A DNA stretch of 64,000 nt from Minisyncoccota bacterium (GTDB taxonomy: Bacteria; Patescibacteriota; Minisyncoccia; Phycocordibacterales; UBA9973), in assembly GCA_017991895.1 (NCBI GenBank), contig JAGOPR010000001.1, positions 13,089 to 77,088 of the forward strand, written 5' to 3'. This document shows, piece by piece, positions 4,505 to 63,420 of the stretch. Under the pieces are notes generated by a model that saw nothing but the letters and a program-made list of their open reading frames with translations, ran no database searches and was not told the origin of the DNA. The translations under genes and the position numbers were made by a program. Numbering within the stretch: the first letter of the stretch is position 1; every line of letters starts with the position of its first letter.

Positions 4505-4537
4505 TCTCAGCCGGTAACCCGGTTACCGGCTGAGAGT
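4505..4537. repeat. REP-like perfect palindrome (copy 1), ctctcagccggtaacc-c-ggttaccggctgagag
   Basis: 16-bp perfect inverted repeat with core ccggtaacc/ggttaccgg; overlaps the last codons and stop of the RAYT gene. Confidence 0.85.
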
Positions 4538-5218
4538 AATCCACTCAATGATCTCCTTTCTGAAGTCGTTTTTGTTTGGAAAATAATCTGGAAACACATT
4601 CGTATCAAGTATCCTACTTTGCGGTCTTTTTTTATTATTAAAATCAGCAAAACTACTCCATTTATAATCCTTTAAATAATTTAGGGCTTCGTTCGTATCT
4701 CGAATACCCTTCTCCTTCCAGTCGCCCTGAATTAATTTTACAGGATTCAAATGAATATACGAAAACAGATATTTTGCGTAATTATCGTTATTAACATGAG
4801 TCGACTTGAATCGACCCTCAAAAAGTGATCCCGTGCGTTTGTGACGAGCATTAAAATATCGAGAGTAAGCCTTCTCAACTCTGTGCATATAATCTGAAAT
4901 AGGATTACTTAGCTCACCCCGCTTGCCGGTAACCGGGTTACCGGCTGGTATCGTTGCGTAAATATGAAAATGATTGGGCATCAATACCCAAGCTCCGATT
5001 GCAATAACTGTATTACCTCTTTCAAAATCAAAAGCACTTATTTTACTTTTAACAATATCATCTCTAAAATCAAACTTAGTGCTCGAATTACATAAGTATA
5101 GTAATTTTACAAATCTATCCCTATCAATATCATCAACAAAAATTAGTTGCTTACTATTCCCGCGATTATACAGGTGATAAAATTCACCCTCTACAAATGT
5201 GACAGTTCTCTGTGACAT
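4523..5218 (-). CDS. REP-associated tyrosine transposase (RAYT) / IS200-like Y1 HUH transposase
   Basis: HUH motif (MPNHFHIY) and catalytic Tyr region (AYSRYFNARH); flanked and interrupted by REP palindromes. Confidence 0.7.
   Translation of the reverse strand: MSQRTVTFVEGEFYHLYNRGNSKQLIFVDDIDRDRFVKLLYLCNSSTKFDFRDDIVKSKISAFDFERGNTVIAIGAWVLMPNHFHIYATIPAGNPVTGKRGELSNPISDYMHRVEKAYSRYFNARHKRTGSLFEGRFKSTHVNNDNYAKYLFSYIHLNPVKLIQGDWKEKGIRDTNEALNYLKDYKWSSFADFNNKKRPQSRILDTNVFPDYFPNKNDFRKEIIEWITLSR
4924..4944. repeat. REP-like palindrome (copy 2) inside the RAYT CDS
   Basis: gccggtaacc-g-ggttaccggc; in frame it encodes PAGNPVTGKR within the transposase. Confidence 0.8.
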
Positions 5219-5233
5219 ATGCCTAATTATATT

Positions 5234-5252
5234 CCGGTAACCGGGTTACCGG
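5234..5252. repeat. REP-like palindrome (copy 3), 15 bp upstream of the RAYT start
   Basis: ccggtaacc-g-ggttaccgg lies between the RAYT start (5218) and the helicase stop (5259). Confidence 0.8.
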
Positions 5253-5258
5253 CAAGCA

Positions 5259-7028
5259 TCATTTTGTCTTTTTTACATATGTTGTCTTGGAGGCCTTGGC
5301 AATTTTTTGACGTTCAAGAAAAGATTTTGTATCTTCATCAGGCTCAATTAAATTATGACTAACAAGACGCAAATTTATAGAACTCGGCCGTCGCCCAAGA
5401 ATTACAGCAATTTCCTCAATTGATTTCCCGTTCTTAAACTCGCGCACCAGCACAAAGTCTTCTTCATCCTTCCATGGCTTTCCTGCATTTGGATAAACAG
5501 AACGAATTTTTTCCATTTTTTCAATCCATTCTGGACTTGCTTTGGACTTTTTGATGCTTGATGTTTTGTATTTTTTCTCTTCGATTTTTCCTCCCATTTT
5601 TAATATGAAGCCATGCTCAAGTTTTTCGAGCTCTTCCTTTGAAAGCCTCGAAAACATTTTTTTATTTTCTTCACTTTCGCTTTGAAAATTTTCATCTAGT
5701 GCAAGCACTGCCGGATCCATTGATAACGCATTATCCGAATATCCCACTAGCCTAATACCAGATAGCGTACGTACACGTGAAAGCGCCACATACCCCATTC
5801 CGTATGTAAATGTCTTTGATAAATCTATTTCTGCGCTATCCATGCTCATTCCTTGGCTCTTGTGGATTGTAATAGCCCACGCAAGACGAAGCGGGTATTG
5901 AGTGATTGAGGCCTTAACTCGTCCATTTTCTTCTACCTCCCAGTCCATCGCTCCTACAGTAAGTTTTCTGCCAGTAGAATATATTTCGACGATCGGCTCG
6001 CCTCTGCTATCAAATCCAGAAACTTTTCCTCGCGTCCCATTAAAATATCCGAGTTCGTAGTTGTTTTTTATAAACATGACTTCTGCGCCAATCTTTAGCG
6101 CGAGTCGCTCCGGAGCAAGGCAGGCTTTTTTGAGTGCCTCAACTATAAATTCACTTCCCTTCCCCGCCATTACAAATTCTTTTGTATCTCCAGAAATCTT
6201 TGCGAGTTCCGCATGATTTATAGAATCAACATCAATATTATGTGTATACAACTTGGTCGGAAGTGTTCCGATATTCTCCGCGTTCATTCTGCCTTTTACG
6301 AGAGCCTTATGTGTATCATCCACAGTATTTGTCCGCATTGCATTTAGGATTTCCAGAAATACGTCGTCCTCCTGTCTGTGCTGTTCCGTAAGATAACAAA
6401 TAGCAGGCTTCATCGCGCGCCATGCTCGAGAATGCACCACCATGTCAGATTCAGGTATTTCTTCCTTGATTTCCCCACTATCGTAGTCAATGAATAACTC
6501 GCTTTGAGATTGTATTTTTGATTCACTATTTTCTATTTTCGATTTACTATTTACAGATTTTGTCACAGGCGGTAGCTGAAAAAAATCTCCAGACAAAATC
6601 ACCTGAAGCCCGCCAAACGGCAAATCGTTGCGCTTAAACCTGCGACATACCCGCTCCACCATGTCGAGCCGATGCGCGTGAAGCATAGAAACTTCATCAA
6701 TAATAAGTACTCTCGCTTTTTCAAATCGTTTCCAAAGATACTGCTTTTGCTCAAGTTGTTCGAGCGCAAAATCATCGAGTGTCTCACGTATGCCAATTCC
6801 AGACCATCCATGTATCGTCTGGCCGTTCATATGTGTCGCTGCGATGCCCGTAGACGCGGTTATGGCGACAGGAATCTCATGTTCATCTAGCCATCGTATA
6901 TACTCTCGTAAAGTATGTGTTTTACCGCTCCCAGCCGAACCAGTTAAGTATACGTTGAGGCCTGTCTTCATTATCGCTAGAGCTTCTGTTTGAGTCATAT
7001 ATTGAGTTTGTATTATACACGAGGACAA
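5259..7028 (-). CDS. PIF1/RecD-like ATP-dependent DNA helicase
   Basis: Walker A GSAGSGKT, Walker B LIIDEVSML, C-terminal HKSQGMS motif typical of RecD/Pif1 SF1B helicases. Confidence 0.75.
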   Translation of the reverse strand: MSSCIIQTQYMTQTEALAIMKTGLNVYLTGSAGSGKTHTLREYIRWLDEHEIPVAITASTGIAATHMNGQTIHGWSGIGIRETLDDFALEQLEQKQYLWKRFEKARVLIIDEVSMLHAHRLDMVERVCRRFKRNDLPFGGLQVILSGDFFQLPPVTKSVNSKSKIENSESKIQSQSELFIDYDSGEIKEEIPESDMVVHSRAWRAMKPAICYLTEQHRQEDDVFLEILNAMRTNTVDDTHKALVKGRMNAENIGTLPTKLYTHNIDVDSINHAELAKISGDTKEFVMAGKGSEFIVEALKKACLAPERLALKIGAEVMFIKNNYELGYFNGTRGKVSGFDSRGEPIVEIYSTGRKLTVGAMDWEVEENGRVKASITQYPLRLAWAITIHKSQGMSMDSAEIDLSKTFTYGMGYVALSRVRTLSGIRLVGYSDNALSMDPAVLALDENFQSESEENKKMFSRLSKEELEKLEHGFILKMGGKIEEKKYKTSSIKKSKASPEWIEKMEKIRSVYPNAGKPWKDEEDFVLVREFKNGKSIEEIAVILGRRPSSINLRLVSHNLIEPDEDTKSFLERQKIAKASKTTYVKKTK

Positions 7029-7332: not shown

Positions 7333-7394
7333 CAAATCATGCCTGCTGTGTGTAGTAGATACACACGCCGTTATTCGATTAATACATTAAATCT

Positions 7395-7748
7395 ATGGTA
7401 AAAAAATCAGGCAGTAATGCAGGAAAAGTATTGGCAGTGAGCATTGGCATCGCAGCAGTTTCTGCTGCAGCATATCTTCTCATGGGTAAAAACGGAAAGA
7501 CAAATCGTAAAAATCTAAAAGGCTGGATGCTCAAAATGAAAGGCGAAGTCGTTGAAAAACTTGAAAAAATGAAAGAGGTCACGGAAGAAAAATTTGAAAA
7601 CGTTGTTAGTGATATTTCAGAAAAATATCGTGCGATGAGCCATGTTGATTCAGACGATTTAGAAAAAGAAGTAAAGTTACTACGAAGCGATTGGAAAGCC
7701 CTTGTTAAAAAACACAAAAGTGGAATAAGAAAGGTTGTTAAAAATTAA
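7395..7748 (+). CDS. YtxH-like (DUF948) membrane-anchored coiled-coil protein
   Basis: N-terminal TM followed by a Lys/Glu-rich coiled coil; terminator directly downstream. Confidence 0.4.
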   Translation: MVKKSGSNAGKVLAVSIGIAAVSAAAYLLMGKNGKTNRKNLKGWMLKMKGEVVEKLEKMKEVTEEKFENVVSDISEKYRAMSHVDSDDLEKEVKLLRSDWKALVKKHKSGIRKVVKN

Positions 7749-8803: not shown

Positions 8804-10711
8804 TTATTTACCTTCTGTATCCTTTTTAACCTCTGCATCTTGAACAGGATCATCATTTTTTATTTCCTCTGGCTGAGGCTCGGCTGTTGTTCCAGTTTCA
8901 GTAGCTTGGCCTGCTTTCTGCATTGCCTCCCCTATCTTCATCATTTCATTTGAGAGGGCTTCAGTAGCTTTCTTGATAGCATCCATGTCGCTTCCATCTT
9001 TTGCTGTCTTAAGCTCAGCAATCTTTGCCTCAACAGCGGTCTTTACATCAGCTGGTACTTTGTCACCAGCATCCTTGAGACCTTTTTCTGCAGTAAAGAG
9101 AATCATGTCGGCTGTGTTCTTCACATCGGCAACTTCCTTCTTCTTCGCATCTTCATCTGCATGAAGCTCGGCGTCTTTTTGCATCTTTTCAATTTCTTCT
9201 TTTGAAAGACCTGAAGATGCTTCGATGCGAATAGATTGAGATTTTCCTGAAGCCTTGTCTTTTGCTGTTACTGAAAGGATTCCGTTCGCGTCCACATCAA
9301 ATGAAACTTCAACCTGTGGCATTCCGCGTGGTGCGGGTGGAATTCCATCAAGAATAAATTTTCCAAGAGATTTGTTGTCAGCAGCCATTGGACGTTCACC
9401 TTGAGAAATATGAATTTCTACGCTTGTCTGATTGTCTGCCGCAGTTGAGAATACTTGCGATTTCTGTGCAGGAATCGTGGTGTTCTTCTCAATGAGCTTC
9501 GTCGACACACCTCCCAATGTTTCTATTCCAAGAGAAAGCGGGATCACATCAAGAAGAAGAACGTCGCGTACTTCACCCTTAAGGACTCCACCTTGCACAG
9601 CCGCACCGAGAGCTACAACTTCATCAGGATTTACACCCATGTGAGGTTTCTTTCCGAAGAATTTTTCTACTTCAGCAATAATCGCAGGCATACGAGTCTG
9701 TCCTCCTACAAGAATTACTTCATTGATTTCAGAAACTTTAAATGGTGATGCTTCCACAGCGCGCTTGGTGATCATCATTGCACGGTCGATGTATTCACGA
9801 GTAAGATCTTCGAGTTCTGCACGCTTCATGGTGCGAACCAAGTGCATTGGACCAGCCTCGCCTGATGTGACGAATGGAATATTGATTTCAGTTTCAATTG
9901 CAGTTGAAAGCTCAATCTTTGCTTTTTCGGCAGCATCATCGAGACGCTGACGAGCGAGCGGGTCTTTTCGCAAATCAATTCCATTTTCTTTTTGGAATCC
10001 TTCTGCAAGCCAGTTCATGATTTTCTGGTCGACATCTTTTCCTCCGAGGTGTGAGTCACCGTCTGTAGATTTTACTTCGATGACATCATCGCCCACTTCG
10101 AGCACTGATACGTCGAATGTTCCTCCTCCGAAGTCGAAGACAGCGATCTTTTCATTTTTGTTTTTATTAAATCCGTATGCAAGCGCCGCAGCCGTTGGCT
10201 CGTTGATTATGCGCTTCACGTCAAGACCGGCAATCTTACCTGCGTCTTTTGTAGCCTGACGTTGTGCGTCGTTGAAGTATGCTGGCACAGTGATGACAGC
10301 TTCTGTAACAGTCTCGCCAAGTCGAGCTTCTACATCAGCTTTGATCTTTTGCAAAATCATCGCAGAGAGTTCTTCTGGACGGTAGAATTTGTCGCCCATT
10401 TTCACTTCCACTCCGCCATTGTCTGCCTTTCGCATTTCGAAAGGAATCATACTCAAATCTTTCTGCACTTCCGGATCGTTGAAATTGTGACCAATAAAGC
10501 GCTTGATTTGATAGATCGTATTTTTAGGATTTGTTATGCTCTGGCGTTTTGCGGTAACTCCCACCATTCGGTCGCCATTTTTTGCGAGCGCGATGATAGA
10601 AGGAGTAGTGCGCATACCCTCTGCATTTTCTATGATTTTTGGTGCACCTCCTTCAATGATTGCAACTGCACTGTTTGTTGTACCCAAGTCAATTCCGATG
10701 ATTTTTGACAT
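8804..10711 (-). CDS. dnaK: Chaperone DnaK (Hsp70)
   Basis: [18 protein letters not shown] and the full Hsp70 architecture. Confidence 0.97.
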
Positions 10712-11370: not shown

Positions 11371-11395
11371 TAGCCGGTAACCGGGTTACCGGCTA
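11371..11395. repeat. REP-like palindrome (copy 4), tagccggtaacc-g-ggttaccggcta
   Basis: Same core as the copies around the RAYT gene, 8 bp after the stop of the PaaX-like gene. Confidence 0.8.
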
Positions 11396-11446
11396 CTTGT
11401 AATCTGTCTTTTTTTGAAAAATGTGGTACAGTTTTGAAAAATAAAA

Positions 11447-18869: not shown

Positions 18870-18929
18870 GAGTAAGCGTTAAAAAGAAAAAACACCCTTT
18901 CGGGTGTTTTTTCTTTTTAACGCTTACTC
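18870..18929. terminator. 28-bp perfect palindrome hairpin overlapping the rpsI stop (bidirectional terminator)
   Basis: gagtaagcgttaaaaagaaaaaacaccc tttc gggtgttttttctttttaacgcttactc. Confidence 0.7.
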
Positions 18930-46726: not shown

Positions 46727-47758
46727 TTACTGCTTAAGTGGTTTTGGGTACGGAGGATATATGTCCTTATCAATTGTACGTGTAAAACATGTTCGTCCAG
46801 ATTGGTGATCCCACGATTCGTTTACTCCACCACTAGGATACGGATAAGACGAAACAGCAACGTCACCATTCATTACAGCAGGCATCGGCATAATATCACG
46901 CCCTCCTCCGTATTCTTGCCAACCTTTCGGCATAGGTTCTGCAAACGTACCACAAAGTTCGAATGACAATTTTCCAGTAGTTTTATATTCATAAACCATA
47001 CCCTTTTCAAACTCCGGATCAACTGGCAAGGAAAATCCGCTCATTGGGTTATTCATTTCAGTGAGAGTTTCAGGCAACTTCTCCTTTGTCTGCCAGAAAT
47101 TTATAACTTGGTATTGAATAGACTGCAAGTCTTGTACACGGCGTTCATCGAGACGAAGACTGCGTTGTTTAAATGGGCTCCCCATAACAACGAAACTCAT
47201 GACAAGCGCGAAAACAACAAGTAATGTGGCGACACTCGCCATGATAATTCTGTGACCCTTACACAATACTTTATCGACAAGCTCGTTGTAATAATAAAAT
47301 CCAGAAAGTCCCGCTGTTACGAATACGGCTAGAACTTTTAGAATAAAGCGAACCGTTATCTCACCAGAGACAAAATATCGCACAAGCGTGACAAGGTCGG
47401 TGATAATTACGATGCTCGCAAGAAAAAGTACCAAGTAAAGCATCCATTTTTTTATAACTGCATCAGTACTGCCGAGGCCATCGCTTACAATGCGTGTCCA
47501 AATTTTTGAAAGAATCAAAAATACAGGAAACACTATAATCAACGTCGCTAGTGCAGTACGCATAGATTCATAACTATATGTATTGTATCCGTATGTGTAA
47601 GTTCCATTTAATGCATCGGGAAAATTCTTCGCAAGGGTTTCAAATACAAGATTTAAAAAAGATGTAACTGTCGCGATGAGCGAGACTAGAACACCCAGTG
47701 ATATAAAGAAGAATTTGGGCGTCATTTTCTGTCCTGTTTGTGCGGGTGTGGTTTCCAT
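46727..47758 (-). CDS. Hypothetical polytopic membrane protein
   Basis: ORF with several TM helices. Confidence 0.4.
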   Translation of the reverse strand: METTPAQTGQKMTPKFFFISLGVLVSLIATVTSFLNLVFETLAKNFPDALNGTYTYGYNTYSYESMRTALATLIIVFPVFLILSKIWTRIVSDGLGSTDAVIKKWMLYLVLFLASIVIITDLVTLVRYFVSGEITVRFILKVLAVFVTAGLSGFYYYNELVDKVLCKGHRIIMASVATLLVVFALVMSFVVMGSPFKQRSLRLDERRVQDLQSIQYQVINFWQTKEKLPETLTEMNNPMSGFSLPVDPEFEKGMVYEYKTTGKLSFELCGTFAEPMPKGWQEYGGGRDIMPMPAVMNGDVAVSSYPYPSGGVNESWDHQSGRTCFTRTIDKDIYPPYPKPLKQ

Positions 47759-47888
47759 ATGTGTGTAAAGTAGGACTTACGCAATCGAGCGAGCAACACA
47801 GAAATGTGCCGGTTTCATAGGTCCTATAAAGTTAAATGTGAATAATAATGTTGGTTTCTATAATGCCTGTGTAGTATAATAGCACTAT

Positions 47889-48443
47889 ATGAGTCCCCGT
47901 AAAACTCCCCCTCCACGCCAAAAAGATGAGTCATTTCTTGACTACATGTCTTTTCGAGCTACACGATGGGTTGGTTCACCTGCGTCACTCGTTGTCCATA
48001 CAATACTTTTTATTTTATCCTTCCTGACATATTTCCTTGGTGCAGATATAAACAAAATATTGCTTGTTCTAACCACTATCATTTCCATGGAAGCAATATA
48101 TATTTCGATATTGATTCAACTCACAGTAAACCGTCATACAAAACAACTTCGTGAAGTTTCAAAAGACGTTGAGGACATTCAAGAAAACGTTGAAGACATT
48201 CAAGAAGACGTTGAAGAAATTCAAGAGGACATCGATGAAATCGCTGAGGACGTCGAAGACATTCAAGAAGACGTTGAAGAAATTCAAGAGGATGAAGAAA
48301 TTGAGGAAAAAGCTGAAGATGCAAAAGAAAAAGAAGTACTTGAACGTATCGAGCATTCACTAAAAGAGCTCGGACATGAAATCGCCGAAATGAAGCGTCG
48401 CGGACATACTCCGCCAAACAACCGCAGCATTTTAGGAGAGTAA
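47889..48443 (+). CDS. DUF1003-like membrane protein with an acidic tandem-repeat linker
   Basis: N-terminal RWVGSP...two-TM region; then eight repeats of (V/I)E(D/E)IQE(D/N) encoded by 21-nt DNA repeats. Confidence 0.5.
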   Translation: MSPRKTPPPRQKDESFLDYMSFRATRWVGSPASLVVHTILFILSFLTYFLGADINKILLVLTTIISMEAIYISILIQLTVNRHTKQLREVSKDVEDIQENVEDIQEDVEEIQEDIDEIAEDVEDIQEDVEEIQEDEEIEEKAEDAKEKEVLERIEHSLKELGHEIAEMKRRGHTPPNNRSILGE

Positions 48444-51097: not shown

Positions 51098-51538
51098 TTA
51101 CTGTGTTTTTGATGTTAAAACGAACTTTCCAGTGGGCTTTGTCCAGTCTGTATAACGCCACCATTTTGGCTCGAAGACGAAACAAACAAACTTTGGGTCC
51201 TTAGATTTTTCTTTCCGTTCCGGAAATTTTTGGAAATAAACACTATCGAAATGTTCTCGTTCATCATCTCGAAGCAGTCGTACTTCCCCATCAAGCTGAA
51301 AGGTTTTCATGACGCTTTCTCCAAAACCAATGACAAGCGAGGCGCGACTCGCATCACGCCCAAACAGCGCCTCTGCTTTTCGATATTCACGGTACGTTTC
51401 AAAGTAAAATAAAAATGGGTTTTCAGTATGTGTAAAATGAACTGTTGCAACGTGAGGAGAGCCATCAAGCATTTCTATGGCAAGCGCGCTTACGCGCTGT
51501 GTATTTAGAAAATCTAAAATTTCTGGGTTCATAAACAT
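51098..51538 (-). CDS. Pyridoxamine 5'-phosphate oxidase-like FMN-binding protein
   Basis: Split-barrel PNPOx-like N-terminus. Confidence 0.6.
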   Translation of the reverse strand: MFMNPEILDFLNTQRVSALAIEMLDGSPHVATVHFTHTENPFLFYFETYREYRKAEALFGRDASRASLVIGFGESVMKTFQLDGEVRLLRDDEREHFDSVYFQKFPERKEKSKDPKFVCFVFEPKWWRYTDWTKPTGKFVLTSKTQ

Positions 51539-51997
51539 TTATATATTTGATAGATCTGCGATTTGATATGTTACCCGATCACCTTCCTTTTGTATCGGAA
51601 CGAACCCGAACGACTCATACATTTTACCAGCAATTATATTTTTAGTAGATAGACGTATCGAACGAAAATTTTTCTTTGCCTCGGCAAGAATCATTTTTAA
51701 CAAAACTGTTGCCAAGCCCTGCCTTCGGTATGATTTTGTAACAAAAATATGACGTACGCGTGCAACTGTTTCATCGTCTGTGTATGGATCTTTATTTATT
51801 CCGCCCATCGCTATTGGCTCGTCATCAATAGTGAGAGCCCAAAATTTTTCACCTTTTTTCGAAAAAGTATTTCCTTCTTTCCACTCGTCTAGAAGCTTCT
51901 TTCCGAGCACATGACCCTCATCAATTGATTCATCAATAAGTTTCTGCAAAATAGCCAGATTTGAGTCGTTTATTTCGATAATTTTGTAGTCTTTCAT
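51539..51997 (-). CDS. GNAT family N-acetyltransferase
   Basis: Acetyl-CoA binding motif RRQGLATVLL. Confidence 0.8.
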   Translation of the reverse strand: MKDYKIIEINDSNLAILQKLIDESIDEGHVLGKKLLDEWKEGNTFSKKGEKFWALTIDDEPIAMGGINKDPYTDDETVARVRHIFVTKSYRRQGLATVLLKMILAEAKKNFRSIRLSTKNIIAGKMYESFGFVPIQKEGDRVTYQIADLSNI

Positions 51998-52212
51998 TTG
52001 TGTATAGAATTTTCATAGACGAATGCAGTTCTAGGTAACCGACTTCTTAGATTGTACACAATCTGTTGAAGTCGCAATGCCCGTGGGTACGCGAGTTCGT
52101 TTTGCGACCAAAACGTATAGGCATACGTTGCCGTCATACGACGACTGCTCGGCTTACGCGCGGTTGCGGGAACAAACGAACGAGCAACGCAGAAGTGCGC
52201 CGTATACGCAGG

Positions 52213-53325
52213 TTATATCTTGAATTCGATGACGTCCCCGTCTTTAACTATATACTCCTTCCCTTCCGTTCGTACTTTGCCCTTAGAACGTGCTTCTCCA
52301 TAACTTCCTGCCTCAAGTAGGTCCTTCCAAAAGACAACTTCTGCGCGGATGAATTTGTCTTTAAAATCAGTGTGTATTGCCATACCTGCAACTGGAGCCG
52401 TACTCCCTGTTTTAATAGTCCATGCACGTGTTTCTTCTACACCCGTCGTAAAATATGTATCAAGACCAAGAAGTTTGTACGCCTTTGTAATTAGGTTATT
52501 GATTCCATTTTCTCCACCGCCCATCTCGACACGAAACATTTCTTTCTCATCGCCCTCAAAATCTTTTAGCTCATCTTCAATTTTTGCATCGAGAACAACA
52601 TACTCTGCTCCAGTCGAAATAATATAATCACACAAATCCTTAAATAGCTCTGGATGAGATTCATCGAGATTTTTTGATCCGGCACGTTTGTTGAGTCCGT
52701 ATAAAATTGGCTTTGCAGTCAGAAGGCCGAGCTGTTGTACTTTTGGAAGTTCTTTCTCGTCAAACTTGATTGTATTCACCATTTTCTCTGCTTCGAGAGC
52801 TTCCATTATTTTTTTCAATGCACCCTCTTCAATTACAGCTTCTTTCTCGCCACGTTTTGCATCACGAGAGATATTTGAAAGACGTTTTGATACAGTTTCA
52901 AGATCGGCAAGAAGAAGCTCGAGATTTATCACACGAATATCTCGAAGTGGATCAATGTCGCCGTATACATGAAGAATATCGTTCCCATTTCCACCTTTAA
53001 GCGGAAAGATACGGACCATTTCGAAAATGGCATCTGTTTCGCGAATGTTTGCAAGGAATTTATTTCCGAGACCTTCGCCTTTTGATGCTCCAGCAACAAG
53101 TCCAGCAATATCTACGAATTCAATCGCCGCGGGAATTGTTTTATTTGTTTTAGAAAAATCTGCGAGCTTATACAAGCGGTCATCCGGAACCCCAACGATA
53201 CCGACTGATGGGTCGATAGTACAAAATGGATAGTTTTCTGCAGGTACGCCCTTTTTTGTAAGCGCGTTAAAAAGCGTCGATTTACCGACATTAGGCAGTC
53301 CAACAATTCCGATTGATAGTGACAT
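52213..53325 (-). CDS. ychF: Ribosome-binding ATPase YchF
   Basis: GIVGLPNVGKSTLFNALT G1 motif, TGS domain. Confidence 0.95.
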   Translation of the reverse strand: MSLSIGIVGLPNVGKSTLFNALTKKGVPAENYPFCTIDPSVGIVGVPDDRLYKLADFSKTNKTIPAAIEFVDIAGLVAGASKGEGLGNKFLANIRETDAIFEMVRIFPLKGGNGNDILHVYGDIDPLRDIRVINLELLLADLETVSKRLSNISRDAKRGEKEAVIEEGALKKIMEALEAEKMVNTIKFDEKELPKVQQLGLLTAKPILYGLNKRAGSKNLDESHPELFKDLCDYIISTGAEYVVLDAKIEDELKDFEGDEKEMFRVEMGGGENGINNLITKAYKLLGLDTYFTTGVEETRAWTIKTGSTAPVAGMAIHTDFKDKFIRAEVVFWKDLLEAGSYGEARSKGKVRTEGKEYIVKDGDVIEFKI

Positions 53326-55082: not shown

Positions 55083-55784
55083 TTACTTTATCTTTTTTAG
55101 TATTTTTGGAATCAGCGAGAAGTCTTTTTTTAAAGTATCTCTCATTCCCCCATTATAGAGTGCTGATGCCGGATGATATAGCGGCAAAAAATATTCTGTT
55201 TCTATAACTCCCGAAACTGAAGCATTTCTTTGTTGCTCACTCGTTTTCTCCTGCGGAGTAGGATTACTACACCTTAGTCGCAAGCCTCGCTCGCGCCTCG
55301 AACTGCATTCAGTTTCGGGGGTTATAGGAGTAGTTTTAAATTTTTTGTGAATAAGCTTGCCGTGCACTTCGGAAATTTTAAGCTCGGGAAAAAAATTATT
55401 CATTGAGTGCCTGCCTAGAAAAACTATTAACTTCGGTTTTATTAAATTAAGTTCTTCGTAGAGCCACGGGGCGCAAGCCTCTTTCTCGCTTGGCATAGGG
55501 TCGCGATTGTCTGGCGGACGATACTTCACAATATTTGTAATATAAACATCTTCCCTTTTCATTCCAATACCATCAAGCATCTCTGAAAGAAACTTACCCG
55601 CTGAGCCGATAAAAGGGACACCTTCCTCATCCTCTTTTTTTCCTGGGGCTTCGCCAATAAATACAATCGAAGCTGTAGCGGGTCCGTCTCCAAAAACCGG
55701 CTGAGTAGCCGTAGCCTTTAAAACACAGGAATTTTCGTTTGCCCATTTAGTATGAAGCTCTATTAGTTCTTCCTGCTTCGTCAT
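55083..55784 (-). CDS. Uracil-DNA glycosylase, family 4
   Basis: GEAPG motif and HPS-like C-terminal motif. Confidence 0.8.
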   Translation of the reverse strand: MTKQEELIELHTKWANENSCVLKATATQPVFGDGPATASIVFIGEAPGKKEDEEGVPFIGSAGKFLSEMLDGIGMKREDVYITNIVKYRPPDNRDPMPSEKEACAPWLYEELNLIKPKLIVFLGRHSMNNFFPELKISEVHGKLIHKKFKTTPITPETECSSRRERGLRLRCSNPTPQEKTSEQQRNASVSGVIETEYFLPLYHPASALYNGGMRDTLKKDFSLIPKILKKIK

Positions 55785-56059: not shown

Positions 56060-56081
56060 AAGTAAACCAACGCGGAGTAAA

Positions 56082-56118
56082 AAAACCAGCAAGGTCCGAC
56101 CTTGCTGGTTTTTTTACT
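56082..56118. terminator. Bidirectional terminator
   Basis: aaaaaaccagcaaggtc cg accttgctggttttttt. Confidence 0.8.
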
Positions 56119-60026: not shown

Positions 60027-61727
60027 TTATAGTACCTCTTTTTGGTAACAGGATTCGCAGTAGACCACCTCAGGGCGTCCTTTTTCATATGGCGTTCTGA
60101 TATCTTTTTTGCAGTTATCACAAGTACGATCAAAGAGTTTAGTTGGCAAAAGCATTTTGTAGCGTTCTTTATGGCGCTCGGCTCCTGCTACTCGCGGAAT
60201 CGGCAAACCTGCTTGGCGATAGAAAGAAAGTTCAGCTGGCACAATACGATACGCTTTTCCAGAAACCTCACACTTTAAAATCATTTTTAGTATATCGTCG
60301 CCGACATCTTTGATATCGTCCGGAATCGTATAGTCAGAAAATTCGTAGTGAGTATCAGAAACATAGTCGCTCCATTTATATCCTTGTGCGAGCGCTTCTT
60401 CTTTTGAAAGCGGAAAAATATCGGGAGCAGTTGTTTCATTGTATCCATAGGAAGAAAATTCTGTTGGAAAAAATTCTCCATATTTATACACTCGCCCCAT
60501 CTTGTCCACATATGGCATATCCTGCATGTGTTTTTTAATTCTAGGTAAAAGCTCGTTATATTCTTCTTTCGTATATTTTTTATTAAGAATCGTATATTCT
60601 GCACCACGAACACAAACGCATCCAAAACAATTACTAACACTTCCTACCATTGTCGAATACTCGACAGTATTGATAGTCACTTTCTTAAGTGGGTCATTCG
60701 AAATGCAGAAAAGCAAAAATTTTGAATCATAGACTCCCCCACTGTGAGCACATTCATACGCGAGCTCGGCAGCGCCAAGGCAACTACAATCATACAAGTC
60801 ACGTGCCCACCCAGTAATAAAGAGATTTTTAGAATTTTCAATCTTTGTGCATTCCCAGACATTATGAGAATTCTTTGCTTCCGAAACTGCGTTACCCGTA
60901 GTGTCTACGGATTTAAAAATAGTATTTTCGCGGTGTGGAGAATTATTCCAAATAGGAACAATCTGCTCCTTCCACCATGAAAGTCCACGGTGAGATGATA
61001 TTGGATGTTCGGACAAAAATTTCTGATATTCCTCTTTTGTATACTGCTCGTTAAAAATACAGTATTGCTTGTTGCGCAGTCCGGCACAACCAATAACATT
61101 GCTACAATTGCGACAGTCATATGAGAGGACTGTATTTAAGGAATCGTGGCATTCATAGGAAAAGTGTGTGAAATAATCTCTCTCGCAGTGCACATTATTT
61201 GAAGAATGATCAGAGTTAAATATCCAATAATTATCGAAGCAGTTTTTGCACTGAACTCCGTATGTACAATATGCACAGTCTTCGTTGTACATCCCTCCTA
61301 CATTCATATAACAATTTTTACTATCATTCTCTTGATTTATCCATTCACTATTTATTGCATTTGAATTCAGTATTGATATTTGTGGAACAGCAAGGAAAAG
61401 CTCGAGCCATTGCTCGAAAAATGGTCGTAAAAAATCATACTCTTTACCGTATGAACACGGGTCCCATTTGTCGCTCCACCAGCATTTTGAACAATACATG
61501 GGGAAAGTCTTATCTGGAGATACACGAGAAACAACACTCGTGCCACACAAATCACAATCACGCTTGTAGAAATTACGTTCGTTACGAAAGGCAAGCCTGC
61601 GCTGAAAACGGCAGTCCGCACAAAACGTTGGAGGTGGAACATTTACCTTCTGGTAAAAGTCAAAGTCCTCTGGCTCAATCGTAAAGTCATTCTTACAGTT
61701 CTGGCAATTTCGGGTTTCGTTTTGCAT
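60027..61727 (-). CDS. Large cysteine-rich multi-zinc-ribbon protein (566 aa), paralog 1
   Basis: N- and C-terminal CxxC..FY..P..CxxCR..Y..CxxC double zinc ribbons; two internal Cys modules each ending in YCIxNxQYTKEEY. Confidence 0.55.
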   Translation of the reverse strand: MQNETRNCQNCKNDFTIEPEDFDFYQKVNVPPPTFCADCRFQRRLAFRNERNFYKRDCDLCGTSVVSRVSPDKTFPMYCSKCWWSDKWDPCSYGKEYDFLRPFFEQWLELFLAVPQISILNSNAINSEWINQENDSKNCYMNVGGMYNEDCAYCTYGVQCKNCFDNYWIFNSDHSSNNVHCERDYFTHFSYECHDSLNTVLSYDCRNCSNVIGCAGLRNKQYCIFNEQYTKEEYQKFLSEHPISSHRGLSWWKEQIVPIWNNSPHRENTIFKSVDTTGNAVSEAKNSHNVWECTKIENSKNLFITGWARDLYDCSCLGAAELAYECAHSGGVYDSKFLLFCISNDPLKKVTINTVEYSTMVGSVSNCFGCVCVRGAEYTILNKKYTKEEYNELLPRIKKHMQDMPYVDKMGRVYKYGEFFPTEFSSYGYNETTAPDIFPLSKEEALAQGYKWSDYVSDTHYEFSDYTIPDDIKDVGDDILKMILKCEVSGKAYRIVPAELSFYRQAGLPIPRVAGAERHKERYKMLLPTKLFDRTCDNCKKDIRTPYEKGRPEVVYCESCYQKEVL

Positions 61728-61764: not shown

Positions 61765-63420
61765 CTAGTTAATATTCTGCTTATAACATGCCTCGCAGGC
61801 AATCTTCGTATATCCCCATTCCTTTGGGTAGTACGCACCCACCTCATTATTGCAGTAAATGCAATTATAAGATTCCGCTTTCCACGGAGCCATCGTGCGC
61901 ATACGGTTTTTTGTACGGACATCAAAATGGACACGAGGAAGCGCAATTCCCTTTCGTGAAAGGAATTTGAATTCTTCAGGTGCGATGTTGAATCGCCAGC
62001 CAGTTTCTGGACAAATAAGTGCCTGCTTAGAGATGGTTTCGTCTACTTCCGTAATACTATTTGGCAATTCGCTCGTTGGAATACCGTCTACTTGGCTCTC
62101 AACGTTGTCATTCCAGTACCCGCCTCTAGCAAGTACAAATTCCTTTGTGATTTCTGGCATATAAATCGAAGCCGTAGTGAGATTATAATCACAAAGCCCC
62201 ATGTTATACGGCAAAAACTGCCCATATTCACCATGTGCTTTCATGTCAGCGATTATCTTTTCACGAAGTGCCTCATATTCTTCTTTTGTATATTGCCTAT
62301 TTAAAATACAATATTTTTTCTTTCGAAGCCCAACACATCCAAAACAATATTCAACTTCAAGACACTCATCGAGATATTCTGAATAGCGCCCTTCGCTCCA
62401 TGAGGAATAATGAAGTCCGTACCCTCCAGTGCAACAACTGTCATTTCCGCACACCTCGACTTTCCATGAACCAAGAAGATCAATGCAGTCCTTTGCTTCA
62501 CGTCCACGAAGACAATTCACACAATTTTCTGATTCTTCCCATCCGAAAACGTTCTGGCAATTGTTGCAATCTGCAAGGTATGTTCCTTTCGATGCATAGG
62601 TGTTTAGTGTGAAATTCTCTCGATGCACTGTCTCTTCTCGCAAGATTTCAACATAGCGTGCCTTTAGCTTTTCAAGTCCTGCGTATGAACTCATGTCATA
62701 TTCTTTAAGCTTTTCAAAATATTCTTCTTTTGTGTACTGCACATTTTCGATACAATATTGCGCACCGCGGAGATTCCAACACATCGTACAATTGCTGCAG
62801 TTTCGGCAGTCGTACAAAAATCGTGAGTTCATACAGTCACGGCAATTTCTTGAAAAATAAAGTTCGAAGGAGTGAAAGGAATAGGTACACTCGTAGCAAT
62901 TGTCTAGGGTAAATGCATGGGAGATATCCATCGAATCTTTCGCATCAAAAGAACGATATCCATACAAAAGATTTTCGGAACGAGCAACTGAGCGCGTGAG
63001 GTAACAATTTTTAGAATCCCAGACATCGTCACACCAATCGCAAAGTAAGTTGTTTGTTCCTTGTTGGTGCGGACGTGGTACTTTTTCTTGCAATTCTTTT
63101 AGCTGGTCAAAAAACGGTCGTGACTCGTCATAGTCTTGCCCAAAATCCATGGCATCCCATGCATCGCTCCACCACTCTTTGGAATGGTAAATCGGATAGC
63201 GCACGCTCGCCGGAAGCATCGTTATAAGGCTTTCTCCTGAAAGTGACGATGTAGCTTTACGAAATTTACCGAATGGCCAAAATGCAAACTGCTGTGCCAT
63301 ACGGCAAGAAAAACAATTGAGTGGTATTTCAATTGCTACTTTTTCGTACAAAAGAAACTCAGGGGGTGTGATAGTAAAATCTTTCTTACAGCTCTGGCAT
63401 TGTTTCGTTTCTGTTTGCAT
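61765..63420 (-). CDS. Large cysteine-rich multi-zinc-ribbon protein (551 aa), paralog 2
   Basis: Same architecture and conserved YTKEEY modules as 60027..61727. Confidence 0.55.
   Translation of the reverse strand: MQTETKQCQSCKKDFTITPPEFLLYEKVAIEIPLNCFSCRMAQQFAFWPFGKFRKATSSLSGESLITMLPASVRYPIYHSKEWWSDAWDAMDFGQDYDESRPFFDQLKELQEKVPRPHQQGTNNLLCDWCDDVWDSKNCYLTRSVARSENLLYGYRSFDAKDSMDISHAFTLDNCYECTYSFHSFELYFSRNCRDCMNSRFLYDCRNCSNCTMCWNLRGAQYCIENVQYTKEEYFEKLKEYDMSSYAGLEKLKARYVEILREETVHRENFTLNTYASKGTYLADCNNCQNVFGWEESENCVNCLRGREAKDCIDLLGSWKVEVCGNDSCCTGGYGLHYSSWSEGRYSEYLDECLEVEYCFGCVGLRKKKYCILNRQYTKEEYEALREKIIADMKAHGEYGQFLPYNMGLCDYNLTTASIYMPEITKEFVLARGGYWNDNVESQVDGIPTSELPNSITEVDETISKQALICPETGWRFNIAPEEFKFLSRKGIALPRVHFDVRTKNRMRTMAPWKAESYNCIYCNNEVGAYYPKEWGYTKIACEACYKQNIN

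What the first reader, a model, noticed from the sequence alone, without database searches (positions are those of the whole stretch)
47775..47830. ~60-nt GC-rich element present twice (47775-47830 and 52150-52215)
Copy A: ggaCTTACGCaatcgagCGAGCAACaCAGAAaTGtGCCGgtttcatAGGTcctATA. Copy B: cggCTTACGCgcggttgcgggaacaaacgaaCGAGCAACgCAGAAgTGcGCCGtatacgcAGGTtATA. The shared blocks are CTTACGC, a 22-nt CGAGCAACRCAGAARTGYGCCG core, then AGGT and ATA at the same spacing. Copy A lies between divergent genes 46727..47758 (-) and 47889..48443 (+). Copy B lies at the 3' end of ychF, in a 200-bp GC-rich hairpin-dense spacer (stems gtcgcaa/ttgcgac, cgtttt/aaaacg, acgtat/atacgt). The spacer sits upstream of the GNAT gene and also contains a 14-bp palindrome GATTGTACACAATC at 52050-52063. 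This is a conserved non-coding element of unknown function: possibly a regulatory RNA, a transcription-factor site, or a small repeat.
Basis: seen in the sequence. Interest (0 to 1): 0.5.

Follow-up and report, generated by a model that had tools for sequence, protein, structure and literature searches.

The report
Decayed MITE copies in a CPR bacterium
The two look-alike GC-rich stretches are worn-down copies of a small non-coding "jumping" DNA element (a MITE with the end sequences of IS701-family insertion sequences); a third, intact copy sits in-frame inside the uracil-DNA glycosylase gene nearby, and the same element occurs in several other Candidate Phyla Radiation (CPR) bacteria.

Summary
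The 22-nt core occurs twice (47790-47811 and 52181-52202, 19/22 identical) and in no shuffle of the window.

It is not a two-copy oddity. A third, full-length copy (124 nt, 55203-55326, minus strand) lies in-frame inside the UDG gene. Thirteen full-length copies were recovered from at least eight other CPR contigs, including Magasanikbacteria, Taylorbacteria and Parcubacteria.

The element is a ~125-nt rod-like imperfect palindrome with terminal inverted repeats TAGGACTTACGCAnTTGG. Young copies carry perfect 5-bp target-site duplications. Copy A is flanked by TAAAG on both sides.

The same terminal repeats and 5-bp duplications bound ISMesi2-like IS701-family insertion sequences in Meiothermus, Methanosarcina and Gloeocapsa. 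They also bound two other short elements with unrelated interiors.

- Copy A is an internally deleted copy.
- Copy B is a decayed, probably composite copy whose end overlaps the ychF stop codon.
- Relatives of this genome have empty sites at all three positions.

Verdict: an apparently undescribed MITE family of a well-known kind. It resembles the Rickettsia palindromic elements in its in-frame genic insertions.

One point is unexplained. The interior is more conserved than the arms (85% vs 62%), with compensatory changes along the whole hairpin. No Rfam family matched. No transposase was found in the DNA held.

The parts
47766..47770 (.). Left 5-bp target-site duplication (TAAAG) of copy A
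   Evidence: Read directly. A flush 5/5 direct repeat with 47827-47831.
47771..47826 (+). Copy A: a 56-nt internally deleted MITE. The left terminal repeat TAGGACTTACGC(AATCGAG) is joined directly to the 3' interior CGAGCAAC..GAAATGTGCC and then to the right terminal repeat (..TAGGTCCTA).
   Evidence: The left arm is an exact 12/12 match to the family terminal-repeat consensus. The 3' part aligns to family HMM positions 83-131 (E=1.3e-4). The arms pair 8/9. The relatives' spacer is 44 nt against 130 nt here and lacks the element.
47827..47831 (.). Right 5-bp target-site duplication (TAAAG) of copy A
52070..52217 (+). Copy B: a decayed, rearranged copy. The left boundary is uncertain. It matches family HMM positions 36-131 but carries about 36 extra nt (about 52127-52165).
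   Evidence: nhmmer: 34.3 bits, E=1.5e-9, alignment 52090-52219, envelope 52070-52221. Covariance model: 19.5-24.2 bits. Absent downstream of ychF in L005, L007 and L008.
52149..52217 (+). A left-repeat-like stretch TCGGCTTACGCGCGGT is joined to TGCGGGAACAAACGAACGAGCAAC..GTGCGCC and a degenerate right repeat CGTATACGCAGGTTATA. This is the same kind of internally deleted layout as copy A.
   Evidence: Read by eye against the family alignment; about 10/12 match to the left terminal repeat with one gap. The nested or tandem parse is an inference.
52213..52215 (-). ychF stop codon (TAA), overlapped by the right terminus of copy B
   Evidence: ORF 52213..53325 on the minus strand; sequence; relatives end in the same ..EFKI*.
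55203..55326 (-). Copy C: a full-length 124-nt copy (TATAACC...GGTTATA arms) that folds as one long hairpin. It is translated in-frame as a 42-aa insert in UDG.
   Evidence: Covariance model 137.8 bits, E=4e-36. HMM 105 bits. Fold -50 kcal/mol. The insert is absent from the UDG of L005 and L007.
55083..55784 (-). Host gene of copy C: family-4-type uracil-DNA glycosylase, 233 aa against 191-198 aa in relatives. The ORF is intact on both sides of the insert.
   Evidence: Pfam PF03167, E=1e-33, one stretch covering 185 residues for 129 profile positions. Alignment.

Best explanation
The two stretches are fossil copies of a non-autonomous transposable element (a MITE). The family is a ~124-126-nt imperfect palindrome. 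Its terminal inverted repeats, TAGGACTTACGCAnTTGG, are those of ISMesi2-like insertion sequences of the IS701 family.

Mechanism, inferred by analogy with DDE-transposase elements: an IS701-family DDE transposase supplied in trans binds the two terminal repeats, excises or copies the element, and inserts it into AT-rich 5-bp targets, which become duplicated.

Shown here:
- the terminal repeats;
- the 5-bp duplications;
- empty orthologous sites in related genomes;
- multiple dispersed copies in several CPR genomes;
- identical ends on full-length insertion sequences and on two other short elements with unrelated interiors.

Inferred, not shown: that a cognate transposase exists or existed in these CPR genomes, and that it acts in trans.

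In this window:
- Copy A (47771-47826) is an internally deleted copy that still has its TAAAG duplication.
- Copy B (about 52070-52217) is an old, rearranged copy abutting the ychF stop codon.
- Copy C (55203-55326) is full length and adds 42 residues to UDG without breaking the reading frame. A 124-nt element plus a 5-bp duplication is 129 nt, which is 3 x 43.
For: - Family size: the covariance-model search gives 13 full-length copies at 81-148 bits (E 5e-20 to 7e-39) in nine loci from different assemblies, plus window copy B and copy A in the earlier search.
- Terminal repeats: the consensus TAGGACTTACGC is found exactly or with one mismatch at both ends of most copies and at the left end of copy A.
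- Flush perfect 5-bp duplications: TAAAG (copy A), TTAAA (L017 7066-7198), TTTAT (L017 7375-7506), AGTGA (L022). L015 has 4/5. The chance of at least 4 of 16 perfect flush repeats is about 4e-9.
- Same ends, different interiors: L017 7375-7506 and the L022 element. The latter still holds a 37-aa remnant of the transposase C-terminus (tblastn E=5.5e-5).
- Autonomous relatives: the L020 ORF is an IS701-family transposase (NCBIfam NF049921, 405 bits, cut-off 250). It is 100% identical to the annotated ISMesi2-family transposase of Allomeiothermus silvanus.
- ISMesi2-like elements of Meiothermus (two species), Methanosarcina barkeri and Gloeocapsa all end in TAGGASTTACGCAGTTGG and carry 5-bp duplications: GCGGA, ATGGT and ATGCT, and GGAGG under one reading of the boundary.
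- Empty sites in relatives at all three window positions.
- Copies occur in both orientations and in genic, 5' and 3' positions.
Against: - No IS701-like transposase was found in the window or in any CPR locus held. tblastn found only the L022 remnant, so the mobilising enzyme in CPR is not shown.
- The element's interior is more conserved than its arms: 85% against 62% mean pairwise identity. This is the reverse of what simple transposase-driven conservation predicts.
- Compensatory changes occur along the whole hairpin: 30 of 44 pairs, 0 of 500 shuffles as high. This suggests an additional constraint on structure.
- Most older copies, including B and C, have no recognisable duplication (and the manual reading).
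- For one ISMesi2 copy the flush repeat reads as 7 bp unless the end is moved by one base.
Confidence: 0.88

Rival explanations
1. A functional structured RNA, either a cis-regulatory leader or trailer or a small RNA gene. Its conserved core is the ~90-nt interior and its outer stem only needs to pair. On this view the window copies are RNA genes or pseudogenes rather than transposon relics.
For: - Covariation is strong: 93.8% of cells are paired, against 80.4% in shuffles and 28-43% when partners are slid. 30 of 44 pairs show double changes.
- The interior is more conserved than the arms.
- A conserved T.G wobble is present in 12 of 13 copies.
- G.T occurs in 11 column pairs against A.C in 6 on the aligned strand.
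- Copy A folds better than shuffles (z = -3.0).
Against: - No Rfam family matches, even at E up to 10.
- Orientation relative to transcription is mixed. Copies B, L010a, L010b, L016a and L016b are antisense to their neighbours.
- Copies sit inside ORFs in different reading frames.
- The 5-bp duplications, and ends identical to those of insertion sequences, are not explained by an RNA gene.
- Syntenic sites in relatives are empty.
- The G.T versus A.C bias is weak.
Confidence: 0.07
2. A recombination or attachment site left by acquisition of the GNAT-PNPOx gene pair, with copy A as a second target of the same recombinase.
For: Copy B lies exactly at the ychF-side boundary of a ~1.1-kb block (GNAT + PNPOx) that is missing from the syntenic site of three relatives.
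Against: - There is no matching copy at the other boundary (about 51100-51115).
- No recombinase gene is nearby.
- The other copies (C, and those in L009-L019) are not associated with gene cassettes.
- The 5-bp duplications point to DDE transposition.
Confidence: 0.03
3. Chance similarity between two GC-rich spacers.
For: A rough hand calculation (not a tool result) suggests that a 22-mer with 3 mismatches is not rare among all position pairs of a 64-kb window.
Against: - No match in 100 shuffles.
- An independent family HMM finds both copies (E=1.5e-9 and 1.3e-4).
- The left arm of copy A is 12/12 identical to the family terminal repeat.
Confidence: 0.01

Closest known systems
ISMesi2-like insertion sequences (IS701 family) and MITEs derived from insertion sequences in general
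   Same: - The terminal inverted repeat TAGGA(C/G)TTACGCAGTTGG is nearly identical: 17-18 of 18 against the MITE consensus.
- The duplication is 5 bp.
- Both MITE ends look like the right end of the insertion sequence (..TTGG).
- One short relative (L022) still carries a piece of the transposase gene.
   Different: - The main family has no coding remnant, and its interior is unrelated to the insertion-sequence interior by eye.
- The autonomous elements found are in Deinococcota, Cyanobacteria and an archaeon, not in CPR.
- No paper in the searched library describes an IS701-derived MITE in CPR or mentions ISMesi2.
Rickettsia palindromic elements (RPEs)
   Same: Both are short palindromic repeats that insert into protein-coding genes in-frame and are carried as extra peptide segments in otherwise conserved enzymes, in a reduced genome (RPE description: PMC10969869). 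Here the hosts are UDG, a His_Phos_1 phosphatase and an NTP_transferase.
   Different: - RPEs are reported to encode a conserved peptide. Here different genes read the element in different frames: ECSSRRERGLR in UDG, DAVRGASEACD in the other two.
- Most copies here are intergenic.
- This family has clear insertion-sequence-type terminal repeats and duplications.
- The sequences are unrelated.
ERIC / Correia-type MITEs of proteobacteria
   Same: - About 125-nt imperfect palindromes that fold into one long hairpin.
- They are found in transcribed intergenic regions and occasionally inside genes.
- Size variants carry internal deletions or insertions, as copies A and B do.
- Hairpins in transcripts can be RNase targets (PMC10969869). 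That ERIC shows conservation across genera is from my own knowledge.
   Different: - ERIC and Correia elements are associated with TA duplications (own knowledge). Here the duplication is 5 bp.
- The sequence and the host lineage differ.
- No processing data exist for this family.

Membership tests
Prokaryotic MITE | Short (under about 300 bp) and without its own transposase gene | tested here: met
   Copies are 124-127 nt between the terminal repeats. Six-frame translations give only short peptides.
Prokaryotic MITE | Terminal inverted repeats | tested here: met
   Consensus TAGGACTTACGCAnTTGG at both ends. The arms match 9-12 of 12.
Prokaryotic MITE | Target-site duplications of fixed length | tested here: met
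   Flush perfect 5-bp repeats in 4 of 16 elements with these ends, and 4/5 in one more. Chance is about 4e-9. Older copies have lost them.
Prokaryotic MITE | Several dispersed copies, and presence/absence differences between related genomes | tested here: met
   Three copies in 8 kb of the window, two in L010, three in L017, two in L016. Sites are empty in L005, L007 and L008.
Prokaryotic MITE | Ends shared with an autonomous insertion sequence that can supply the transposase | tested here: met
   ISMesi2-like IS701 elements carry the same ends.
Prokaryotic MITE | Cognate transposase present in the same genome | tested here: not met
   tblastn with the ISMesi2 transposase found nothing in the window or in the CPR loci held. 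Only 64 kb of this genome was visible, so the whole genome could not be tested.
IS701 family (ISMesi2 group) derivative | Same terminal repeat sequence and same duplication length as full-length members | tested here: met
   TAGGASTTACGCAGTTGG and 5 bp in the Meiothermus taiwanensis, Methanosarcina barkeri and Gloeocapsa copies. ISMesi2 itself is ambiguous between 5 and 7 bp.
IS701 family (ISMesi2 group) derivative | Interior derived from the parent insertion sequence by deletion | tested here: inconclusive
   This holds for the L022 element, which has a 37-aa transposase remnant. No similarity was seen for the main family's interior, but that comparison was by eye only.
Rickettsia palindromic elements | Palindromic repeat inserted in-frame in conserved protein genes | tested here: met
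   Seen in UDG, His_Phos_1 and NTP_transferase. Pfam domains are split or stretched around the insert.
Rickettsia palindromic elements | Each family encodes one conserved peptide, read in one frame | tested here: not met
   Different frames are used in different host genes, and frame shifts occur inside the element.
Described structured RNA family (Rfam 15) | Match to a curated covariance model | tested here: not met
   No hit at the gathering threshold in the window. At E up to 10, only chance-level hits around A, B, C and L009.
Cis-regulatory RNA | Constant orientation and position relative to a class of genes | tested here: not met
   Copies are sense, antisense, genic, 5' and 3', next to unrelated genes.

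The most novel reading that the evidence does not exclude
The element may be more than selfish DNA. Its ~90-nt interior is kept at about 85% identity across different CPR lineages while the arms drift to about 62%, yet the arms stay complementary, and compensatory changes run along the whole rod. The evidence does not exclude that the hairpin has been recruited for a function at the RNA or single-stranded DNA level. Examples would be an RNase III/E processing or transcript-stabilising or terminating module, or a structure that makes insertions inside genes harmless. That would make it a CPR-wide structured element spread by transposition.
Probability: 0.12. Interest if true: 0.6.

Novelty: new member of a known kind. 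Interest (0 to 1): 0.35.

Why it matters
- CPR (Patescibacteria) genomes are tiny and thought to be poor in mobile DNA. The searched literature holds no description of a MITE in them.
- This family gives a concrete marker of transposition and horizontal spread across CPR lineages.
- The terminal repeat is shared with insertion sequences of Deinococcota, Cyanobacteria and an archaeon.
- Conserved enzymes in these reduced genomes (UDG, a phosphatase, a nucleotidyltransferase) carry about 42 extra residues of transposon-derived peptide, as in Rickettsia.
- There is a practical consequence for annotation. The conserved ATG in GGATGCAG, together with open frames, makes gene callers extend or invent ORFs across copies. 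Several proteins appear to start or end inside the element.

Tried and rejected
- Rfam, at the gathering threshold over the whole window and in sensitive mode on four regions: only chance-level hits.
- Genome-collection scan with CGAGCAACNCAGAANTGNGCCG: three unrelated hits of the number expected by chance. In hindsight the pattern was too specific to the A/B variant, because most copies read GCGAAGCAAC.
- Metagenome scan with AANCGARYGAGCAACRMAGAARTGY: one true hit (L009), again limited by the same indel.
- Viral-contig scans for the interior: nothing.
- blastn of the element against plasmids and phages: nothing.
- The idea that the outer stem comes from the host target, with insertion into pre-existing terminator hairpins: rejected. 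The arms are part of the inserted DNA at the empty-site comparisons, and they are homologous between copies.
- The idea of a TA duplication: dropped in favour of 5 bp once young copies were seen.
- The covariance-model hit at 56077-56117: an ordinary bidirectional terminator hairpin, not a family member.
- A hammerhead or other ribozyme core: looked for by eye only, and nothing was found.
- The extra 37 aa of ychF relative to its homologues: an ordinary protein-level difference, not an element insertion.
- Single-sequence AlphaFold model of the UDG: too poor to place the insert (pLDDT 46).
- Literature searches for MITEs or palindromic elements in CPR, and for ISMesi2: nothing relevant.

Full report
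**1. Observation**

The window comes from a 123-kb contig of a Candidatus Pacebacteria metagenome-assembled genome (GCA_020049755.1) in the Candidate Phyla Radiation, CPR.

The 22-nt core CGAGCAACRCAGAARTGYGCCG occurs at 47790-47811 and 52181-52202. It occurs nowhere else in the window, even with three mismatches allowed, and in none of 100 shuffles. The similarity extends to 25/30 nt. Two of the three core differences form a compensatory pair in a small hairpin (CACAgaaaTGTG versus CGCAgaagTGCG). No Rfam family matches either site.

**2. A third copy, and what the neighbours look like elsewhere**

A short-word BLAST of copy A against the window gave a 19/21 match on the opposite strand at 55223-55243. 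Reading that region showed a 124-nt near-perfect hairpin at 55203-55326 on the minus strand. It lies inside the uracil-DNA glycosylase (UDG) gene, 55083..55784 on the minus strand. A 45-nt block aligns without gaps among the three copies.

Three syntenic relatives were reached through the 605-aa protein that lies between the sites (L005/L006, L007 and L008; about 50% protein identity). All three positions are empty in them:

- Their UDG lacks exactly the 42 residues encoded by the hairpin, while both flanks stay conserved.
- Their spacer between the DUF948-like gene and the gene upstream of leuS (DUF5671 in the window) is 44 nt, against 130 nt here.
- Their ychF is followed directly by a terminator and promoter, without the GC-rich spacer.

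**3. The family**

A metagenome scan gave one more copy, L009, just after a DnaE-like ORF (by eye) in a 53%-GC organism. Its interior is 33/34 identical to that of copy C (by eye).

Copies are often spuriously or genuinely translated. I therefore searched the protein database with profiles made of six-frame translations of the element. This returned 19 further proteins at E up to 10, about 13 of them at E below 0.05. Sources named them as Candidatus Magasanikbacteria, Candidatus Taylorbacteria and Parcubacteria-group genomes.

Fetching their contigs and searching with a covariance model gave 13 full-length copies at 81-148 bits, from L009, L010 (two), L011, L014, L015, L016 (two), L017 (three), L019 and window copy C.

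- Copy B: E=1.5e-9, aligned over 52090-52219 with about 36 extra nt.
- Copy A: E=1.3e-4, aligned over 47781-47828.

**4. Anatomy**

The element is 124-127 nt and folds as one rod-like imperfect hairpin. RNAalifold predicts 44 pairs, 30 of them with compensatory changes. On an independent MAFFT alignment:

- 93.8% of cells pair, against 80.4% in shuffles and 28-43% when partners are slid.
- 0 of 500 shuffles reach the observed values.

The ends are inverted repeats with consensus TAGGACTTACGCAnTTGG. The 22-nt core is the interior next to the right repeat. AGGT..ATA is the right repeat (TAGGTCCTA in copy A).

- **Copy A** has the left repeat (12/12 to consensus) joined directly to the last third of the interior and the right repeat. 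It is an internal-deletion derivative.
- **Copy B** holds most of the family consensus in decayed form, plus an inserted stretch. That stretch itself looks like a left repeat (TCGGCTTACGCGCGGT) joined to the 3' interior. B is therefore probably two partial copies, nested or in tandem. This parse is an inference. Its right end supplies or overlaps the ychF stop codon.
- **Copy C** has divergent but fully complementary arms (TATAACCCCCGAAACTGA / TCAGTTTCGGGAGTTATA).

**5. Evidence of transposition**

Flush, perfect 5-bp direct repeats flank the copies with the best-preserved ends:

- TAAAG at copy A;
- TTAAA at L017 7066-7198;
- 4/5 at L015.

Two further short elements have the same ends, unrelated interiors and perfect 5-bp repeats:

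- L017 7375-7506, with TTTAT;
- an element wrapping the ends of viral contig L022, with AGTGA.

Four perfect cases among 16 elements have a chance probability of about 4e-9.

**6. The parent kind**

The same terminal repeat abuts the 3' end of a 333-aa ORF in L020. That ORF is an IS701-family transposase (NCBIfam NF049921, 405 bits against a cut-off of 250). It is 100% identical to the annotated "IS701-like element ISMesi2 family transposase" of Allomeiothermus silvanus plasmid pMESIL01.

ISMesi2 and its relatives in Meiothermus taiwanensis, Methanosarcina barkeri and Gloeocapsa sp. PCC 7428 are 1.05-1.14 kb. All end in TAGGA(C/G)TTACGCAGTTGG (CAGGAG... in Gloeocapsa). They are flanked by 5-bp repeats: GCGGA, ATGGT and ATGCT. 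For ISMesi2 itself the repeat reads GGAGG if the end is taken one base further out, and otherwise reads as a 7-bp repeat.

The L022 element still contains a 37-aa remnant of such a transposase.

The family is therefore a MITE of the ISMesi2 / IS701 lineage. No transposase of this kind is present in the window or the CPR loci I hold. Which enzyme moves it in CPR remains open.

**7. Where copies sit**

- Three are true mid-gene, in-frame insertions: UDG (window), a His_Phos_1 phosphatase (L011) and an NTP_transferase (L015). Pfam domains are split or stretched around the insert.
- These genes read the element in different frames.
- A 124-nt element plus a 5-bp duplication adds 129 nt, so this length class keeps the frame.
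- Other copies lie a few bases after stop codons (B, L009, L017a), overlap a gene's 3' end (L016a), or lie just upstream of start codons (L014, L017b/c, and others inferred).
- Both orientations occur. The conserved ATG in GGATGCAG leads gene callers to start ORFs inside the element.

**8. What remains odd**

Among 12 copies, the interior averages 85% identity and the arms only 62%. Yet the arms stay complementary, and compensatory changes also occur in the interior helix (10 of 15 pairs).

Simple decay after insertion would not produce this. Possible causes are:

- sub-families with co-evolved ends;
- repair templated between the two arms;
- selection on a hairpin at the RNA or DNA level.

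G.T versus A.C mismatches (11 versus 6 column pairs) give only a weak hint of strand preference. I rate a selected RNA or DNA function as possible but unproven.

**9. Comparison and verdict**

It works like, and passes the tests for, a prokaryotic MITE derived from an IS701-family element. It resembles the Rickettsia palindromic elements in inserting in-frame into conserved genes of a reduced genome (PMC10969869). Unlike them, it does not encode one conserved peptide. It resembles ERIC/Correia elements in size, rod shape and deletion or insertion variants, but it has a 5-bp duplication. That ERIC/Correia duplicate TA is from my own knowledge.

I found no description of it in Rfam 15 or in the searched literature.

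This is a new member of a known kind and is moderately interesting.

Noticed in passing
window 51098-51997 (and the spacer 51998-52212): The GNAT acetyltransferase and PNPOx-like genes form a ~1.1-kb block between ychF and the 605-aa gene. The block is absent from the syntenic site of three relatives (L005, L007, L008). The conserved promoter region resumes right at the PNPOx stop codon. MITE copy B sits at the ychF-side boundary.
   Followed up: partly
It could be an operator, a terminator without a T-run, or the remnant of the left arm of copy B.
   Followed up: no
window 842, 2733, 6521, 15166, 15215, 22181, 22242, 22663, 31083, 33151, 46697, 61721, 63424 (each about 30-47 nt): A second, AT-rich dispersed repeat family made of TAGTAAATAG / CTACTATCTACTAAT-like units. 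It occurs at many intergenic sites in both orientations (families D2-D4 and I2-I10).
   Followed up: no
window 4509-4541, 4924-4956, 5232-5264, 11372-11404: The palindrome (A/T)GCCGGTAACC(C/G)GGTTACCGGC is repeated four times. It may be a REP-like or terminator-type repeat (D6/D13/I14).
   Followed up: no
window 48131-48338: Seven tandem 21-nt repeats lie inside the DUF948-like gene (47889..48443, + strand). They encode acidic heptad-like repeats of the EDIQEDV type.
   Followed up: no
window 56077-56117; also 18870-18929: Perfect long hairpins. GTAAAAAAACCAGCAAGGTC/GACCTTGCTGGTTTTTTTAC lies between convergent genes and is a bidirectional terminator; it scored 22.9 bits with the MITE covariance model purely as a hairpin. 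A 28-bp perfect inverted repeat lies at 18870-18929.
   Followed up: partly
L017 7066-10112: A 3-kb insertion hot spot in a Parcubacteria contig. It holds three copies of the main family plus a second MITE type with the same ends (7375-7506, duplication TTTAT) and a solo terminal repeat at 9130.
   Followed up: partly
L022 14912-14966 plus 1-125 (IMGVR_UViG_3300046710_000257): A ~180-nt element with the same terminal repeats spans the ends of a 15-kb viral contig, which is probably circular. Its duplication is AGTGA, and it holds a 37-aa remnant of an ISMesi2-like transposase. This may be a vehicle for spread.
   Followed up: partly
L023-L026 (Meiothermus, Methanosarcina barkeri, Gloeocapsa plasmids): ISMesi2-like IS701 elements keep an almost invariant 18-bp terminal repeat across bacterial phyla and an archaeon, although their transposases are only 55-77% identical.
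   Followed up: partly
window 52213-53325 (ychF): The window's YchF is 370 aa, against 333 aa in the relatives. The relatives lack about 32 residues of the middle (helical) region. This is a protein-level difference and is unrelated to the element.
   Followed up: yes
window 60549-60631, 61023-61093, 62266-62348, 62719-62759: Four related 40-83-nt segments (71-83% identity) are spaced 0.45-1.25 kb apart. They are probably the conserved ends of tandem paralogous genes (D5/D12/D14).
   Followed up: no
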